A DNA stretch of 64,000 nucleotides, from the IMG/VR virus record IMGVR_UViG_3300050821_003907, positions 1 through 64,000 of that record; one strand, given 5' to 3'. Made by a program: the position numbers and the translations under genes. The notes under the pieces are model-generated. The model saw only the letters and a program-made list of their open reading frames with translations, was not told the origin of the DNA and searched no databases. This DNA is from a virus. Below are positions 5,315 to 19,655 of this stretch, in pieces. Each line of letters begins with the position of its first letter. Within the stretch, counting starts at the first letter, position 1.

Positions 5315-6502
5315 ATGCCGCAGCAGTACGGGAAGAACCGGTTGCTCTACTGGGCAACAGACATCGAAGGTGACACGCTTGAGCAGGCTGCTCGCGCGTC
5401 CCGCTTGCCATTCGTGGAGAGTCACGTTGCCCTGATGCCTGACGCTCACGTCGGCATGGGCGCTACCGTTGGCTCGGTCATCCCCACCAAGGGCGCAATC
5501 ATTCCTGCTGCGGTAGGCGTGGACATCGGGTGCGGGATGATTGCCACCGAGACAGGTTACACGGCGCATGACCTGCCGGATGACCTTAGCCCGCTGATGT
5601 CGCTGATTGAGCAGCGAATCCCGGCAGGTGTAGGCGCGGGACACGGCACTAACGACAACGTTGACCTGAACCTGTTTCCTGGATGGGGTCCGCTGGGCCT
5701 CACGTCGGCTCAGGAGCACACGCTTTGCTCTCAGTTCGGGTCGCTAGGCTCGGGAAACCACTTCGTTGAGGTGGGACTTGACCCTAACGGGTTCGTGTGG
5801 ACGGTACTTCACTCCGGAAGTCGTGGCATTGGCAACCAGCTAGCCAGTGGCCACATCAAGAAGGCAAAGGGGCTGATGAAGCAACTTTCAGTTAGCCTCG
5901 AAGACCCTGACCTGGCGTACTTCCTTGAAGGTACACCTGAGTTCCAGGAATATATGCGAGACCTTCTATGGGCACAGAATTACGCTTACGGTAACCGTCA
6001 GGCGATGAACCAAGCCCTGCTGAAGTCCTTGTTCGAAGTTGTAGGCATGCCTGCGGTGTGGGAAACCATTGACGACGGCATCGTTGAAGTCATCAACTGC
6101 CATCACAACTACACTGCGCGGGAAACTCACAACGGCAAGGAACTGTGGATTACCCGCAAGGGCGCAATTCGGGCTGACGTAAATGACCTGGGCGTCGTTC
6201 CTGGCTCCATGGGCACGAGCACGTTCATCACCCGTGGCCTGGGCAACCCGGAGTCTTTCAATAGCAGCTCTCACGGAGCGGGCCGCAAGATGAGCCGTTC
6301 CAGGGCTAAGCGTGAGCTTGACCGCGCTGCGTTCACCGAGCACATGTCTCGCGCGGGAATAACCTGGAATGCTGAACGCGTTGATGCGCTCATAGATGAG
6401 GCTCCTCTGGCGTACAAGGATATTCATAATGTGATGGCCGACCAGGCTGACTTGTGCGAGGTAGTCACAGAGATTAGCCAGGTTTTCAATTACAAGGGGT
6501 AG
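5315..6502 (+). CDS. rtcB: RtcB-family RNA ligase
   Basis: MPDAHVG, VGVDIGCG, GSLGSGNHF, LHSGSRG, HHNY, TRKGA, PGSMG, SHGAGR, DEAPLAYKDI motifs. Confidence 0.95.
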   Translation: MPQQYGKNRLLYWATDIEGDTLEQAARASRLPFVESHVALMPDAHVGMGATVGSVIPTKGAIIPAAVGVDIGCGMIATETGYTAHDLPDDLSPLMSLIEQRIPAGVGAGHGTNDNVDLNLFPGWGPLGLTSAQEHTLCSQFGSLGSGNHFVEVGLDPNGFVWTVLHSGSRGIGNQLASGHIKKAKGLMKQLSVSLEDPDLAYFLEGTPEFQEYMRDLLWAQNYAYGNRQAMNQALLKSLFEVVGMPAVWETIDDGIVEVINCHHNYTARETHNGKELWITRKGAIRADVNDLGVVPGSMGTSTFITRGLGNPESFNSSSHGAGRKMSRSRAKRELDRAAFTEHMSRAGITWNAERVDALIDEAPLAYKDIHNVMADQADLCEVVTEISQVFNYKG

Positions 6503-13184: not shown

Positions 13185-13262
13185 GGGACCGTGGCCAAGT
13201 TGGTGAAGGCTCCTGTCTTATAAACAGGTAATGCGTGGGTTCAAACCCCACCGGTCCTACCA
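13185..13262 (+). tRNA. tRNA-Ile(TAT)
   Basis: CCTGT-CTTATAA-ACAGG; encoded CCA. Confidence 0.85.
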
Positions 13263-13800: not shown

Positions 13801-13988
13801 CTGGAGAAGCGTGGAGGCTATAGTCAGGTACTAGGGCAAGTCTCCTAAACGTGCTGGCAGGCGGAAAGCTGGGTGATGCCGAGAAGTAAGGCAGGTAAAA
13901 CTGAACCACTTCTGGCGGAGAACCGCATTCTAGCTATAGCTTAAGAACGAGGCGACGCTACGCGCCTACTCCACCTTCTCTTTAAAAT

Positions 13989-14057: not shown

Positions 14058-14163
14058 CTTATTGCTTATCACTGTTGAGTTCACTTATGCGTGTGTGATA
14101 ATATTTGCGGTGAATGCTCGTTTAAGCCTTCGCAAATCCTCACGCATAGTAAGAGAGAACGTA

Positions 14164-14898
14164 ATGGGTACGCGTCTGAAGACGTACTGGTGGAACGAGC
14201 ACCCTAATTTTGGTGATGCGCTTGCCCCGCTTTTGCTTAAGAGATTCGCGGGTACCGACAGCAAGTGGGACACCATCTGCCGAGCTGACGTTATCGTGAC
14301 TGGCTCCATACTGGAGCACGTGCCGCCGCTTTGGAGTGGTCACGTAATAGGGGTAGGCCAGCTTTATGAAGACTCTCGCCTGCACCTGCACACGAAGACG
14401 GCAAAGGTATGGGCCATCCGAGGTCCCCTGTCGGCTCGTAGTGTTCCCGGAGACTATGCCCTGGGAGACCCCGGCTTGCTGGCTGACGAGCTCGTCTACG
14501 TTCATCACAGGGACGTAGCGCTAGGTGTGGTGCCACACTGGACAGATACCTCCCTCGCGAAGAATCCACTCTGGTACAGCCCGAACTGGCAGACGCTGGT
14601 AATTGACCCCGCTGGCGACCCGCTAGACGTTGTACGTTCGATTGGGCGCTGCCAGAAGATTGTGACAAGCTCCCTTCACGGCATGATTGTCGCAGATGCT
14701 TTTGGCATTCCGCGCCGCTATGAGCTTAATCCGGGTGCCAGTAAGTACGAAGGTGGCTTGTTCAAGTTTCGTGACTACAGTCAGTCAATAGGCGCTTCCT
14801 TTGAGCCGGGGAAGGTAATTGAAGCTTCACGATTCAAGGTGGAAGACCGTAAGCACGAATTGTACGACGCTTTCAAGGCGCTAGGGAGCACACTGTGA
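14164..14898 (+). CDS. Polysaccharide pyruvyl transferase family protein (ExoV-like)
   Basis: NFGDAL, GSIL, AIRGPLS, LGDPGLL, LGVVPH, VTSSLHGMIVADAFGIP motifs. Confidence 0.8.
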   Translation: MGTRLKTYWWNEHPNFGDALAPLLLKRFAGTDSKWDTICRADVIVTGSILEHVPPLWSGHVIGVGQLYEDSRLHLHTKTAKVWAIRGPLSARSVPGDYALGDPGLLADELVYVHHRDVALGVVPHWTDTSLAKNPLWYSPNWQTLVIDPAGDPLDVVRSIGRCQKIVTSSLHGMIVADAFGIPRRYELNPGASKYEGGLFKFRDYSQSIGASFEPGKVIEASRFKVEDRKHELYDAFKALGSTL

Positions 14899-15722
14899 AG
14901 CTAATCCAGCAATTTTTCCGGTGGTTGCTAAGGCAGGTGCCTTTTTTCAGGCGAAAAGGTTATGGGATTAGCCTGCTGATGCCATTCAGGTCAGACGGTG
15001 CAGAACGTGAAGCCGCTTATCAGTGGCTAGTTAAGTACTGGAAAGCGCATTTGCCGTTCGCGCAGTTCATTACAGGTACTGATGACCAGGTTCCCTTTAG
15101 TAAGACTAGCGCTTTTAATGACGCGTTTAGCCGGTCAAAGGGTGACATTCTTGTCCTTATTGACGCTGACTGCTATATCGACGCTCAGATTGTGGTTAAC
15201 TGCGCGGAGGAAATTCGCACGGCGCGCAAGGCAGGCCATAAGCTCTGGCATATTCCGTATCGTCAGTTCTACCGGCTTACTGACCTAGCCACTAGCCATG
15301 TTCTGGCGTCCAACCCCGCACACCCACTCCGGTTTTCAGCTTCTCCCAACCCTCGCGATACAGAAGACACGGGAAGTTCCAGTTTTGGTCACTGGTGGGG
15401 CGCGCTCATCCAGGTGATGCCTCGCGAAGCTTATGAACTTGTTGGTGGCTGTGACCCTCGTTTTCGCGGCTGGGGTGGTGAGGATGTCGCTTTCATGAGG
15501 GCTATTGACACGCTGTACGGTAAGCATAAGACTACTGATAATCAGGTTATTCATCTCTGGCATCCCACAATCAAGACCGTTCACAAGCTTAAGTTGTGGG
15601 ATGGCCAGATTAGCCCACAGGATAATGTGACGCTCACCGGCCGGTACTACGCAGCTTTCGGAGACCCCCGTCGCATGCGACGGCTAGTTAACGAATACCA
15701 AGACGGTGAGCGTCCCAAGTAG
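14895..15722 (+). CDS. Glycosyltransferase (GT2/GT7-like)
   Basis: LMPFR, AFNDA, DADC (DxD), GGCDPRFRGWGGED motifs. Confidence 0.85.
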   Translation: MKLIQQFFRWLLRQVPFFRRKGYGISLLMPFRSDGAEREAAYQWLVKYWKAHLPFAQFITGTDDQVPFSKTSAFNDAFSRSKGDILVLIDADCYIDAQIVVNCAEEIRTARKAGHKLWHIPYRQFYRLTDLATSHVLASNPAHPLRFSASPNPRDTEDTGSSSFGHWWGALIQVMPREAYELVGGCDPRFRGWGGEDVAFMRAIDTLYGKHKTTDNQVIHLWHPTIKTVHKLKLWDGQISPQDNVTLTGRYYAAFGDPRRMRRLVNEYQDGERPK

Positions 15723-15727
15723 GGCTG

Positions 15728-16240
15728 CTAGTACAGGACGCCGCCGACTAGCTTGTGCAGTTGGGTGATGGTGATGTCGAAGCCGTCAAGAGTGTCATAC
15801 GGTGCCTTGCTGTCACCCAGTGCCATGAGCTGCATGGGGAACGAGCCGGGCGCGGAGAATCCTAGCGTCCACTCACCGATGTAGTCGCCATTCTCATTAG
15901 GCGTAGTAGCGATGGTCAGGGGGTCGCAGTCGCCCCAGGCATATCCAGCCGGGTCCTGAACCGGCTCAATGCCCGTACCGGGAGCGATGCGCACGTTGAT
16001 GGTGCCGTGATATGAAGTGAACTGATAAGCAGCGCGAACCAGGTACGTACCCGGAACTACGTGAAGGGTGTAGCCATTCGGGTCCAGGGTTATGTCAGAA
16101 CCGACATTGCCGCCCCAGTTCATGTAAGCGCCAGTGTCCTTGCCAACGGTTAGCCAGGTGCCATTCGGCATGGGAGTGCCGCTGGTGGGCATGAGCCAGC
16201 GTGCGCGGGACTTAGCAACGGGGCCTGTGGGTGTAGTCAT
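15728..16240 (-). CDS. Hypothetical beta-rich protein
   Basis: ORF with AAGGA RBS. Confidence 0.6.
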   Translation of the reverse strand: MTTPTGPVAKSRARWLMPTSGTPMPNGTWLTVGKDTGAYMNWGGNVGSDITLDPNGYTLHVVPGTYLVRAAYQFTSYHGTINVRIAPGTGIEPVQDPAGYAWGDCDPLTIATTPNENGDYIGEWTLGFSAPGSFPMQLMALGDSKAPYDTLDGFDITITQLHKLVGGVLY

Positions 16241-16381
16241 TGCTCAATTTCCTTACTGCGAGTGTTTGAGATATCACTGTAAGGATACCGTTAATGGCGT
16301 TGTCCGATGCACGGTAAAATACGACTTTCCGCAATTAGTCGCTATACTCGGGAGGGTGAACCCTTAGCGAGAGGCGGCAGA

Positions 16382-18520
16382 ATGACGAACAATATAACTG
16401 TCATCTGTGACCTTCACAACGGCGATGGAAGCTATAACAGCTCAGGTGGTTACCTCTACTTCACGCCTAATGAAGTACTTACGGATTCGTCTAGTCACGC
16501 ACTACTATCGGCAGTCCCTATTGGCGCGCACTTCACTGGCGGCTCTGACCCTAGCGTATCTCTTGCGGCTACAGACAACACTAATATTCTTCCATCAGGC
16601 TGGACTTGGGTAGCAACTTCTAGTGCTAACCTGCAAGGTGCCCCCAGCTCTTTTTCGTTTTACCTGCCCGCAGGACCCGCCTCATTTACGGCACCTATGT
16701 CCACGCCAGCACAATTCGCCTGGACGCCTACTACCGAGCTGACAACATTGCCTAACGGTACAGGTATTCAGCTAACTGGAGGGTCACTACCGGGTGGATT
16801 CAGCGTCGCTACTACTTACTACGTAGTGCAGGCGTGGGGTACAGCATTCGGCCTTTCCACCATCCAGGGTGGTCCGGCTATAATCGCCACAAGTTCTGGT
16901 TCAGGCACACTGACTGTGGTAAGCATGCACATGTCGGCGCTGGCCAAGCTGGCACCTCCTTCCCCCTCCCTGGCTTACTTGCCTACGCTTACAGCTAACA
17001 GCACCGTGACGTCATCGGGTGCCCTTGTTGCTAACGTGCTTACCGAAGCGGACGCCACCAGTGGCGCGCTGACGATGACTTTTCCCGTTACCACGATTAA
17101 CGGAACGCTAGTTAATGTCGAGAAGTATGACAGCAGTGCAAACTCTGTTACTCTTTCAGGCAGTATTCGCGGTCAGGCATCTTCCAGCTACTCGCTAACT
17201 AATCAGTATCAGGCTGTTACGCTGATTTACTTTAACGGTTCCTGGTGGCCGGTTGCCTCAGGCGGCAGTACTAGCGGGTCTAGCGCAGTTTTCGCGCCTA
17301 CAGGACTGACTGGCGCTACTACGGCAAGCAGGTACGTAGGCGCAACCGCTAGCGGTGCGCCCGGTTCAGGCACGTTCGTAAAGGGCGACTTCATTGTTGA
17401 CCAGACGGGCGCTTTCTGGGTATGCACTACAGCAGGCTCACCTGGTACCTGGACAGAAGTAGTGACTCCGGGAGCCGCAGCAGATTATGCTCCTACGGGA
17501 TTGACTGGTGCTACATCGGCCAGCAGGTACGTAGGAGCTACTGCGAGTGGAGCACCCGGCTCGGGTACGTTCGTAACCGGAGACTTCGTTATAGACCAGA
17601 CTGGCGCGTTTTGGATATGCACCACAGGAGGTTCGCCGGGAACGTGGACAGAAGTAGTTACTGGTAAAATTCCTGACATTCAATGGTTCACCACGCCAGG
17701 CACCGCTACCTGGAATAAGCCTACGGGTGCTCAGGTTGTTCAAGTAGTTGTGTGCGGCGGGGGCGGTGCCGGAGGTAGTGGCGCTATAAATACCGCAAGT
17801 ACTCCTAGTGGTGGTAATGGAGGCGCAGGTGGTGGTGTAACTCAGCGCGTATTTACAGCCGCAGACCTCACCTCTATGGTTACAGTAACCGTAGGTGCAG
17901 GCGGGACTGGCGCAGCGGCTATAACCGGAACTAGTTCTACCGTAGGTAATCCGACTGGTTCTTCTTATCCGGCAGGTGTAGGCGGTTCTTCCTCATTTGG
18001 GGCCTATACTATCGCTACGGGTGGCGGTCAAGGACACGGCGGCGGCATATCAAGTGCTAACGGTCTTGCTACGGTAATAGGCGTAGGTACCGTGCCTGGC
18101 GGTGCCGGAGCATTTAGCACTACTTCTGGTGCCGGACTTGATTCTGTTATAGCCGGAGGTCCTACTGGCGGTGGAGGAGGTGGTTACTGTAACGTAGGTA
18201 CCACTACCGCGTTTAACGGTGGTAACGGTCAATACACCGCTATGGGTTCTTCTTCAAATATCGGTACTGCGGGTACTGTAGCGGGTCCTGTATTGCCGGG
18301 TACGGGTTCGTCAACTCCTGCGAAGGGCACGCCAGGCTGCGGTGGAGGTGGCGGCGCAGGTGCTTATGGCGCAGGTGTTACTGCTCAAACCGGAGCCACA
18401 CCTTATTTCGGTGGAGGTGGCGGAGGCGGTGGTGCGGCTGGCGGTTCGGGTACACTTACATCAGGGGCCGGTGGCAGTGGTGGTTCTGGTTTCGTGCTCG
18501 TGATAAGTTACTTCCAGTAA
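16382..18520 (+). CDS. Ser/Thr/Gly-rich fibre-like protein with C-terminal glycine-rich domain
   Basis: Composition; WFTTPGTATWNKP...VVCGGGGAGG glycine-rich tail-fibre pattern; internal duplication. Confidence 0.7.
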   Translation: MTNNITVICDLHNGDGSYNSSGGYLYFTPNEVLTDSSSHALLSAVPIGAHFTGGSDPSVSLAATDNTNILPSGWTWVATSSANLQGAPSSFSFYLPAGPASFTAPMSTPAQFAWTPTTELTTLPNGTGIQLTGGSLPGGFSVATTYYVVQAWGTAFGLSTIQGGPAIIATSSGSGTLTVVSMHMSALAKLAPPSPSLAYLPTLTANSTVTSSGALVANVLTEADATSGALTMTFPVTTINGTLVNVEKYDSSANSVTLSGSIRGQASSSYSLTNQYQAVTLIYFNGSWWPVASGGSTSGSSAVFAPTGLTGATTASRYVGATASGAPGSGTFVKGDFIVDQTGAFWVCTTAGSPGTWTEVVTPGAAADYAPTGLTGATSASRYVGATASGAPGSGTFVTGDFVIDQTGAFWICTTGGSPGTWTEVVTGKIPDIQWFTTPGTATWNKPTGAQVVQVVVCGGGGAGGSGAINTASTPSGGNGGAGGGVTQRVFTAADLTSMVTVTVGAGGTGAAAITGTSSTVGNPTGSSYPAGVGGSSSFGAYTIATGGGQGHGGGISSANGLATVIGVGTVPGGAGAFSTTSGAGLDSVIAGGPTGGGGGGYCNVGTTTAFNGGNGQYTAMGSSSNIGTAGTVAGPVLPGTGSSTPAKGTPGCGGGGGAGAYGAGVTAQTGATPYFGGGGGGGGAAGGSGTLTSGAGGSGGSGFVLVISYFQ
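17291..17665 (+). repeat. Tandem 195 bp (65 aa) intragenic duplication
   Basis: APTGLTGAT(T/S)ASRYVGATASGAPGSGTFV.GDF..DQTGAFW.CTT.GSPGTWTEVVT twice. Confidence 0.9.
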
Positions 18521-18539
18521 ACGAACGATAGGAATAGTC

Positions 18540-18995
18540 ATGACTACTCTTCAGGTTAGCCTCGGCCTTAGTGTCGCCGATGTCAGTCCTACAGCTGATG
18601 AAACAGTTACCGTTATTTCATTCGACCCGCAGACCAGCACTCCCGGTGATTCTTCGTCAGTTCCTTGCGTTAGCTTTAACGTTGCCGGAGATTATGCAGC
18701 AGCCGGGTCAGGAACTGCTACTACAGGCACGCTAACAGTGCTGGGTGAAGCTATTGACGTATCTCAGTCCGCTTCAGGACTAGCGTATACTTTCGTCGGT
18801 TCAGGTCACGCATACCTGCACACGGATGGTTACTGGCGAGGTTCCGTAGTATTCACTATCACCTACTCAAGTGGCGTAATCTACACCAAGGTATACCCGA
18901 TAGTAACTAACGCCGCACCGCCGCTGACAGTGACGCTGTATTCCACTAGCTCTTCACCGGTGGTTTCTGGCGCTAACATCACGCGCCTTACGTAA
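18540..18995 (+). CDS. Hypothetical protein, paralog of 43430-43887
   Basis: Shared SPTADETVT, AYLHTDGYW.GSVVFT, ANITRLT. Confidence 0.75.
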   Translation: MTTLQVSLGLSVADVSPTADETVTVISFDPQTSTPGDSSSVPCVSFNVAGDYAAAGSGTATTGTLTVLGEAIDVSQSASGLAYTFVGSGHAYLHTDGYWRGSVVFTITYSSGVIYTKVYPIVTNAAPPLTVTLYSTSSSPVVSGANITRLT

Positions 18996-18996
18996 G

Positions 18997-19075
18997 TGGA
19001 GCCGTGGGGAATCGAACCCCAGTCCTGCCTCCGGCCGCGTGCGGATTTAAGAGACAGTCGAACCCTTCCGGCCCC
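18997..19075 (-). ncRNA. Mini-tmRNA: tRNA-like domain only, no tag reading frame
   Basis: GGGGCCG/CGGCTCC-A with G3.U70; D-loop GAAGGGTTCGAC; P2 TGTCTC/GAGGCA; GGAC-TGGGG-TTCGATT-CCCCA. Confidence 0.8.
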
Positions 19076-19088
19076 GCACCTTAGTTTA

Positions 19089-19655
19089 TCACAACCGGTG
19101 CACTGTAAACGAAGTGGGCGAGTCCTTGACGATGGACGTTCCAGCGAACGGAAACTTATAAAGCTGCTGGAACGTCCCGGATGCGTGGGAGAAGGATGCC
19201 GCCGTGAATCCTGGCAGCGGTTGCCCAAAAGCCTCTGCAATTGCTTCTCCGCTATTCTCATGAGAACCGTACTCCGCATGTACGGTGTCGGTCCAGTGAC
19301 GCGTAAGGTCGAATACCTGGAGAACGTAGTCGTCACCTGTGTGCGCTACGTAGAACTTCATGTGGTCACCGGCTTTTACGGTACCTGGAAGAGCATGAGC
19401 CTCAGCAGGCCACATCTCATACCAAGGACTGCACCCGCCGAAACCATTCAGTTCGCCACACTCAAGGCCGTCTTGCTGGATGCCGGGGTTGCCCTTGCCG
19501 AAGCCAGCCCAGAACGCTACAGCGCCGTTTGGGGGCCGTACAGTAGGCACTGTGAACTCAGCGAAAACCTTGGACGTGCTGACAGGCCAGGAGTAGCCCT
19601 CCCAGCCTGTCGGATTGAACATGCTTGCTGTTAGTGCTAGTCCGGGAATAATCAT
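19089..19655 (-). CDS. G1-family glutamic peptidase (eqolisin-like)
   Basis: GWEGYS, FWAGFG..IQQDG, PWYEMWP, SGEAIAE match G1 motifs with catalytic Gln/Glu; TATACT-N6-ATG. Confidence 0.75.
   Translation of the reverse strand: MIIPGLALTASMFNPTGWEGYSWPVSTSKVFAEFTVPTVRPPNGAVAFWAGFGKGNPGIQQDGLECGELNGFGGCSPWYEMWPAEAHALPGTVKAGDHMKFYVAHTGDDYVLQVFDLTRHWTDTVHAEYGSHENSGEAIAEAFGQPLPGFTAASFSHASGTFQQLYKFPFAGTSIVKDSPTSFTVHRL

What the first reader, a model, noticed from the sequence alone, without database searches (positions are those of the whole stretch)
18997..19088. Tag-less mini-tmRNA: a 79 nt tRNA-like domain with the mRNA domain deleted
Seen (minus strand): GGGGCCG GAAGGGUUCGAC UGUCUC [19 nt loop] GAGGCA GGAC UGGGG UUCGAUU CCCCA CGGCUCC A. 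It keeps the tmRNA TLD hallmarks: G3.U70 and A73 alanine identity, stemless D-loop ending UUCGAC, P2 helix, GAC before the T-arm. Pseudoknots and tag ORF (normally ~280 nt) are replaced by 19 nt; CCA is not encoded; a TG-A-TAAACT extended -10 lies 7 nt upstream. Established: SmpB binds the TLD; TLD-only tmRNAs are known from protist mitochondria, while phage tmRNAs I know of are full length. Inference: SmpB/AlaRS decoy blocking trans-translation, or a rescue RNA that adds Ala without a degradation tag, or half of a trans-acting pair.
Basis: partly seen in the sequence, partly recalled or inferred. Interest (0 to 1): 0.9.

Follow-up and report, generated by a model that had tools for sequence, protein, structure and literature searches.

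The report
Phage tag-less mini-tmRNA, DS6A type
This soil phage carries a real 79-base gene for only the alanine-accepting, tRNA-like end of tmRNA, the bacterial ribosome-rescue RNA; one such RNA was already published from mycobacteriophage DS6A, so it is a new member of a known but barely charted family that probably steers stalled ribosomes away from tagging proteins for destruction.

Summary
Observation confirmed. Window 19075-18997 (minus) is a 79-nt tmRNA tRNA-like domain without the mRNA domain (Rfam tmRNA 61.5 bits, cut-off 47). Separately assembled contigs carry the same short form, so it is not a misassembly. The 181-kb actinophage-like genome has no smpB, full tmRNA or tag-like ORF. 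I recovered 140 distinct homologs, almost all from viral contigs and mostly 77-81 nt. All keep G3.U70 and A73, which were not search criteria. The '19-nt loop' is an A-rich bulge plus a covarying 3-bp hairpin. Two other phages of this lineage keep a different mini-tmRNA allele at the same site, one in each orientation; neither has a full tmRNA there. Likeliest mechanism (inferred): it is alanylated, loads host SmpB and EF-Tu, and competes with host tmRNA at non-stop ribosomes so no degradation tag is added. Expression was not shown. This scan has reported the family many times on other DNA (136 notes match the search words). New member of a known kind.

The parts
18997..19075 (-). Mini-tmRNA gene, 79 nt from G1 to discriminator A; CCA not encoded
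   Evidence: RF00023 61.5 bits; family model R1 87.1 bits, a training member; only match in the genome
19069..19075 (-). Acceptor stem 5' strand with G3 of the G3.U70 alanine identity pair
   Evidence: G3.U70 in 140/140 homologs
19057..19068 (-). Stemless 12-nt D-loop ending UUCGAC; SmpB-binding elbow by homology
   Evidence: 12 nt in 18/20 actinobacterial tmRNAs and 53/95 minis; SmpB contacts per PMC8363625
19026..19056 (-). Closed P2 arm: 6-7 bp helix, A-rich internal loop and capping hairpin; replaces pseudoknots and tag ORF
   Evidence: P2 96% of cells paired; 5 of 6 pairs change on both sides
19035..19044 (-). Capping hairpin CCG-CACG-CGG, identical to the one in the DS6A RNA
   Evidence: hairpin in 39/49 motif-unbiased homologs vs 10.3 +- 2.6 shuffled; 3 of 3 pairs change on both sides
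19005..19025 (-). GGAC plus T-arm (5-bp stem, 7-nt loop)
   Evidence: T-stem 100% paired
18997..19004 (-). Acceptor stem 3' strand (U70) and discriminator A73
19083..19091 (-). Putative -10 element (TG-A-TAAACT) 7 nt upstream of G1; its TGA is also the stop codon of the upstream gene
   Evidence: positional enrichment in homologs; matching hexamer in relatives; no sigma70 -35/-10 pair found
19089..19655 (-). Upstream co-directional gene: Peptidase_A4 (G1 glutamic peptidase-like), a synteny marker
   Evidence: PF01828, E 1.2e-13
18540..18995 (+). Convergent 151-aa gene of unknown function whose stop lies one base from the RNA's discriminator; end of a 5-kb cassette absent from the sister phage

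Best explanation
A phage-encoded, tag-less tmRNA of the DS6A family that works as an alanine-charged competitor of host tmRNA. Shown here: the gene, its structure, its conservation, and the absence of phage smpB or a tag ORF. Inferred steps: (1) it is transcribed from its own -10 element or as the tail of the upstream operon, trimmed, and given CCA by host enzymes; (2) host alanyl-tRNA synthetase charges it through G3.U70 and A73; (3) it binds host SmpB through the D-loop/GGAC elbow, then EF-Tu; (4) it enters ribosomes stalled on non-stop mRNA and accepts the nascent chain, adding one alanine; (5) with no reading frame to resume on, no degradation tag is made, and the chain is released by a tag-independent route (drop-off and hydrolysis by host factors, or in this lineage possibly the phage's stand-alone GGQ protein). 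It also drains SmpB from host tmRNA. The net effect is less ssrA tagging and proteolysis during infection. Step 5 is the weakest.
For: G3.U70 and A73 in 140/140 distinct homologs although neither was searched for or filtered on. Published work says a TLD-like molecule inhibits tmRNA 'whether or not chargeable' (PMC4131195), so strict conservation of chargeability points to a step that needs the alanine. Length is tight: 120 of 140 are 77-81 nt. All four helices covary (92.9% paired vs 69.9% shuffled and 37-54% when slid). The elbow covaries among allowed states, A/G 98, U/C 22, A/C 20, U/G 0. No smpB in this genome or 26 others, so the partner would be the host's. The DS6A-type RNA is reported to inhibit endogenous tmRNA in E. 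coli (PMC11915505). CDS-less tmRNAs co-occur with SmpB in mitochondria (same paper). Kept at one variable site in 3 of 3 phages of this lineage examined, as two alleles about 65% identical.
Against: No expression data: the one RNA run laid is contigs only and does not cover the gene. Charging, SmpB binding and ribosome entry are untested. The DS6A experiment (Mao et al. 2009) could not be read directly and is cited through two later papers. How a peptidyl-mini-tmRNA would be released is unknown, and the GGQ protein is missing from 35 other mini-tmRNA-bearing records, 17 of them at least 90% complete. Conserved alanine identity could also reflect a need for stability or EF-Tu protection rather than peptide transfer.
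Confidence: 0.5

Rival explanations
1. Pure sponge: the RNA binds SmpB (and perhaps AlaRS or EF-Tu) off the ribosome and so shuts down host trans-translation, without taking part in peptide transfer.
For: SmpB-contact elbow conserved. Inhibition by a TLD-like RNA is reported to be independent of chargeability and was proposed to act by SmpB titration (PMC4131195). No phage smpB.
Against: Does not explain 140/140 conservation of G3.U70 and A73, or the narrow arm length. One phage carries both a mini and a full-length tmRNA (G006), which a general sponge would also block.
Confidence: 0.22
2. Decoy or nuclease-resistant stand-in against host anti-phage systems that bind or cut tmRNA or tRNA, part of a translation-repair kit with the 34 tRNAs, RtcB and the GGQ protein.
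For: Genome carries 34 tRNAs, RtcB and a stand-alone GGQ protein. Defence systems with predicted tmRNA-binding SmpB-like domains are described (CoCoNuTs, PMC11090510). Allele and orientation turnover at the site, and three elbow variants, would fit an arms race.
Against: No target identified. Mini-tmRNAs also occur in 40-60 kb phages, and none of 35 other records tested has the GGQ protein. The tmRNA-binding role of CoCoNuTs is itself only predicted.
Confidence: 0.15
3. Acceptor half of a two-component tmRNA whose coding module is supplied in trans by a second phage RNA or by host tmRNA.
For: Two-piece tmRNAs exist (PMC11915505). One of 25 mini-bearing records also has a full tmRNA.
Against: P2 is closed on itself and capped, leaving no free strand of the kind that joins two-piece tmRNAs. 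No ORF ending in a tag-like xALAA-stop pattern in the 98% complete genome (0; shuffles 0-2), and no complement of 13 nt or more elsewhere. No other tmRNA hit above cut-off.
Confidence: 0.04
4. Non-functional relic: misassembly, a one-off deletion, or an attP copy left by integration into a host tmRNA gene.
For: Low-depth metagenome source; tmRNA genes are common integration sites (PMC11915505).
Against: Contigs from two runs bridge the whole RNA with 0 differences (one may be the source sample). A separate assembly has the same 93-bp intergenic gap. Both ends and a novel capping hairpin are present, whereas attP copies normally carry one end (own knowledge). No tyrosine integrase in this genome or its sister. 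140 covarying homologs.
Confidence: 0.03
5. Alanine donor or tRNA mimic for a process outside ribosome rescue, such as an aminoacyl-transferase or alanine tailing.
For: Strict alanine identity.
Against: The tmRNA-specific SmpB elbow is conserved, which such uses would not need. The phage has an ordinary tRNA-Ala. No partner gene is shared among the relatives' neighbourhoods.
Confidence: 0.06

Closest known systems
'TLD only' (standard form, no CDS) tmRNA of Mycobacterium phage DS6A (tmRNA Website tmID 11587; JN698994 28478-28557; PMC4131195, PMC11915505)
   Same: 80 vs 79 nt; same acceptor stem with G3.U70 and A73; stemless D-loop ending UCGAC; closed P2 with the identical CCG-CACG-CGG hairpin after an A-rich bulge; CCA not encoded; intergenic; 61 of 83 aligned columns identical.
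   Different: DS6A has GCAC where this RNA keeps the canonical GGAC. DS6A is a 60-kb integrase-bearing phage; this is a 181-kb phage with 34 tRNAs and no tyrosine integrase detected. Gene neighbours are unrelated.
Bacterial one-piece tmRNA (ssrA, Rfam RF00023) and full-length phage tmRNAs (cluster C mycobacteriophages, Streptomyces phage Faust)
   Same: TLD sequence and structure; passes the Rfam cut-off. Cluster C phages also carry the same stand-alone RF-1 family protein.
   Different: No pseudoknots, resume codon, tag ORF or stop; about 300 nt replaced by a bulged hairpin; cannot tag in cis.
CDS-less organellar tmRNAs (mitochondrial RF02544 form; about 65-nt Mallomonadaceae plastid form; PMC11915505)
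   Same: TLD without a tag frame; co-occur with SmpB in the mitochondrial case.
   Different: Mitochondrial ones are listed as permuted and are the organelle's only tmRNA; this one is one-piece and would coexist with a complete host tmRNA.

Membership tests
DS6A-type TLD-only phage tmRNA | One-piece TLD, 5' and 3' halves joined by a short closed P2 arm, no CDS | tested here: met
DS6A-type TLD-only phage tmRNA | Sequence and structure homology to the DS6A RNA | tested here: met
   61/83 identical columns and same capping hairpin; a model built without DS6A scores it 64.1 bits while tRNAs score at most about 34
DS6A-type TLD-only phage tmRNA | Phage-encoded, without a phage smpB | tested here: met
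   terminase, portal and capsid genes; smpB absent
DS6A-type TLD-only phage tmRNA | Inhibits host tmRNA tagging when expressed | not testable with these tools
   reported for the DS6A-type RNA only (PMC11915505, PMC4131195)
tmRNA (RF00023, standard form) | Acceptor stem with G3.U70 and discriminator A73 | tested here: met
tmRNA (RF00023, standard form) | Stemless D-loop, P2 helix, GGAC and T-arm | tested here: met
tmRNA (RF00023, standard form) | mRNA-like domain with resume codon, tag ORF and pseudoknots | tested here: not met
   about 300 model positions missing; no stop codon in frame 1 of the RNA; no tag-like ORF in the genome
tmRNA (RF00023, standard form) | Alanylation and SmpB binding | not testable with these tools
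   determinants present by sequence only
Two-piece (permuted) tmRNA | Permuted gene order with a coding piece held by an intermolecular P2 | tested here: not met
   standard 5'-3' order and self-closed P2; Rfam's best clan hit is RF00023
Canonical tRNA | D-stem and anticodon arm | tested here: not met
   not called by ARAGORN; D-loop has no stem
attP remnant of a tmRNA-integrating element | One-ended tmRNA fragment next to an integrase | tested here: not met
   both ends present; no tyrosine integrase in G000 or G001; serine integrase not tested

The most novel reading that the evidence does not exclude
Phage mini-tmRNAs are the acceptor of a tag-free ribosome-rescue pathway, not mere inhibitors. 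Ala-mini-tmRNA with host SmpB clears the non-stop mRNA and takes the nascent chain. In this lineage the phage's tail-less GGQ protein then releases it, so proteins made on cleaved mRNA escape proteolysis. That would be an undescribed rescue route and a tractable model for how CDS-less mitochondrial tmRNAs work.
Probability: 0.2. Interest if true: 0.8.

Novelty: new member of a known kind. Interest (0 to 1): 0.42.

Why it matters
The curated tmRNA database lists only 9 standard-form CDS-less sequences and 79 phage sequences (PMC11915505). The family gives natural, covarying variants for testing an open question: what a tmRNA without a reading frame does on the ribosome, which also bears on mitochondrial tmRNA. 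It may be a common way for phages to switch off host protein tagging. The kind itself is published, so this copy is not a surprise in principle.

Tried and rejected
Misassembly: rejected. Full tmRNA or smpB elsewhere in the genome: none; ARAGORN at lowered score gave only 103 permuted-form noise calls. Separate tag-coding piece: none. attP relic: no tyrosine integrase. Obligate pairing with the GGQ protein: rejected, 0 of 35 other mini-bearing records; conversely, of 12 GGQ-bearing viral records 3 have a full tmRNA and 2 a mini. My idea that the mRNA domain was lost by one deletion between two copies of a palindromic GCAYGC helix: not supported, the 20 actinobacterial tmRNAs inspected do not carry that motif on both strands. 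blastn against cultured phages found only T-arm matches. The sigma70 promoter and terminator scan found nothing. Minimum-energy folding was uninformative. Expression: RNA run X3 holds neighbouring pieces but not this gene; contigs cannot show absence, so no verdict. Mao et al. 2009 was not retrievable under the DOI I tried. No paper in the library uses 'mini-tmRNA' with 'phage'. No phage peptidyl-tRNA hydrolase or CCA-adding enzyme found. The 3' neighbours in the window and in relative L210 are not homologous.

Full report
Observation. Rfam's tmRNA model scores it at 61.5 bits (cut-off 47; E 1.3e-22) with about 300 model positions missing. ARAGORN lists 34 tRNAs at 9.3-14.1 kb but not this RNA. 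The window is the first 64 kb of a 181,160-bp, 98% complete virus record with terminase, portal and capsid genes. The terminase's best cultured matches are actinobacterial phages at about 33% identity, so an actinobacterial host is likely (inference).

Not an artefact. Contigs from soil runs X1 (18925-19331) and X4 (18911-19314) bridge the whole RNA with no differences; one of these may be the source sample. A separate ENA assembly has a 99% identical upstream protein and the same 93-bp gap to the convergent 151-aa gene, too short for a full tmRNA. The genome has no other tmRNA hit above cut-off, no smpB, no tyrosine integrase and no tag-like ORF.

Family. Pattern scans of viral contigs and of one genome collection gave 140 distinct RNAs with a 7-pair acceptor stem, almost all viral. 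All 140 have G3.U70 and A73, neither of which was in the patterns or filters; 120 are 77-81 nt, and 30 encode CCA. On an alignment of 96, 92.9% of cells pair, against 69.9% in shuffles and 37-54% when partners are slid, and 14 of 21 pairs change on both sides (related sequences inflate such counts). The '19-nt loop' is an A-rich bulge plus a 3-4 bp hairpin: present in 39 of 49 homologs found without using that motif, against 10.3 +- 2.6 shuffled, and in 22 of 31 that lack the commonest motif. A TANNNT hexamer lies 5-8 nt upstream in 30 of 140 (8.5 +- 2.7 expected). In the window its preceding TG is the stop codon of the Peptidase_A4 gene, so both an own promoter and read-through from the operon remain possible.

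Close relatives. Sister phage G001 (terminase 96% identical, about 84% at DNA level; G002 is a near-identical fragment) lacks the window's 14086-19098 cassette. In the 98 bp left there it carries a different mini-tmRNA on the opposite strand. A third relative (terminase 85%) has that same allele (78/81 identical) in the window's orientation, downstream of the peptidase operon. The window's allele is only 53/82 identical to theirs but about 81% identical to minis from other viral contigs and 61/83 to DS6A. So the lineage keeps a mini-tmRNA at one variable site through gene turnover, inversion and probably allele exchange (the last is inference). None of these relatives has a full tmRNA there.

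What is known. Hudson, Lau and Williams list 'Mycobacterium phage DS6A (TLD only)' and write that a similar molecule, chargeable or not, strongly inhibits tmRNA, perhaps by titrating SmpB (PMC4131195). Nawrocki, Petrov and Williams count 9 'standard, no CDS' sequences and say the DS6A form inhibits endogenous tmRNA in E. coli (PMC11915505). I located the DS6A RNA (JN698994 28478-28557, unannotated). It has the same architecture and the same CCG-CACG-CGG hairpin, and a model built without it scores it at 64.1 bits. The window's RNA is therefore a member of that kind. It is not a standard tmRNA, because the mRNA domain is absent. The scan's own notes report the family in many other genomes; I treated these as leads and tested the DS6A link and the family breadth myself.

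Mechanism. SmpB grips the TLD elbow (E. coli A15, U17, C18, G19, A334) and H2 points out between the subunits (PMC8363625); G3.U70 and A73 specify alanylation (PMC3968760). The RNA keeps these by homology and would need the host's SmpB, since none of 27 mini-bearing records tested encodes one. If inhibition does not need charging, as published, then invariant alanine identity points to a charged role. The likeliest is delivery by SmpB and EF-Tu to non-stop ribosomes, transfer of the chain onto alanine, and no tag (0.5). A pure SmpB sponge (0.22), a decoy or stand-in against RNA-targeting defence (0.15), a non-rescue alanine donor (0.06), a trans-acting pair (0.04) and a relic (0.03) are the rivals. 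All functional steps are inferred; nothing here shows expression.

A possible partner. The genome encodes a 117-aa stand-alone GGQ protein (PF00472, PHROG 3122, 47% identical to the RF-1 proteins of cluster C mycobacteriophages) that lacks an ArfB-like basic tail, and an RtcB. The sister phage has the GGQ gene too. It is absent from 35 other mini-bearing records, and GGQ-bearing phages carry a full tmRNA (3 of 12), a mini (2 of 12) or neither detectably. It is thus a candidate release factor in this lineage only, not a required part.

Verdict. Real, conserved, and a new member of the published DS6A-type TLD-only tmRNAs. The value lies in the family's size, the structured arm, the covarying elbow and the clear experimental question. 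Interest 0.42.

Noticed in passing
window 19089-19655 (-): Phage-encoded Peptidase_A4 / G1 glutamic peptidase-like gene (PF01828, E 1.2e-13). Few relatives found, those with context in this phage lineage; no match in cultured phages.
   Followed up: partly
G000:111806-112159 (-), locus L248 1360-1713: 117-aa stand-alone GGQ (RF-1 domain) protein without an ArfB-type basic tail; same family as in cluster C mycobacteriophages; also in sister G001.
   Followed up: yes
window 5315-6502 (+): RtcB RNA ligase upstream of the 34-gene tRNA cluster; DS6A also encodes an RtcB-like ligase.
   Followed up: partly
window 14086-19098: 5-kb cassette (polysaccharide pyruvyl transferase-like, GT2 glycosyltransferase, 737-aa glycine-rich protein, two unknown genes) absent from sister G001; relative L210 has other genes, including a beta-helix protein, at this site.
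   Followed up: partly
L099 3062-3142 and L210 7871-7951: Sister-phage allele with a UCGUC / GCAC elbow instead of UCGAC / GGAC; 22 such variants found, and no U/G combination. Could reflect altered SmpB specificity or nuclease escape.
   Followed up: partly
G006 (L515 289-680 and L516): One 123-kb phage carries both a mini-tmRNA and a full-length tmRNA, whose ARAGORN-predicted tag does not end in the usual AA.
   Followed up: no
L110 2897-2976, L113 3038-3115: Mini-tmRNAs inside an Acidimicrobiales MAG and a Mycobacterium MAG that each also hold a full-length tmRNA; probably prophage or binned phage contigs.
   Followed up: partly
L007 11908-12002, L010, L020 1828-1916: Longer (89-95 nt) tag-less variants with an extended inner arm.
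   Followed up: no
window 13185-13262 (+): tRNA called Ile with a TAT anticodon, rare in bacteria; also in relative L210.
   Followed up: no
window 13817-13940: About 120-nt non-coding stretch between tRNA-Cys and tRNA-Arg that looks structured and is absent from sister G001 at the same place; not examined.
   Followed up: no
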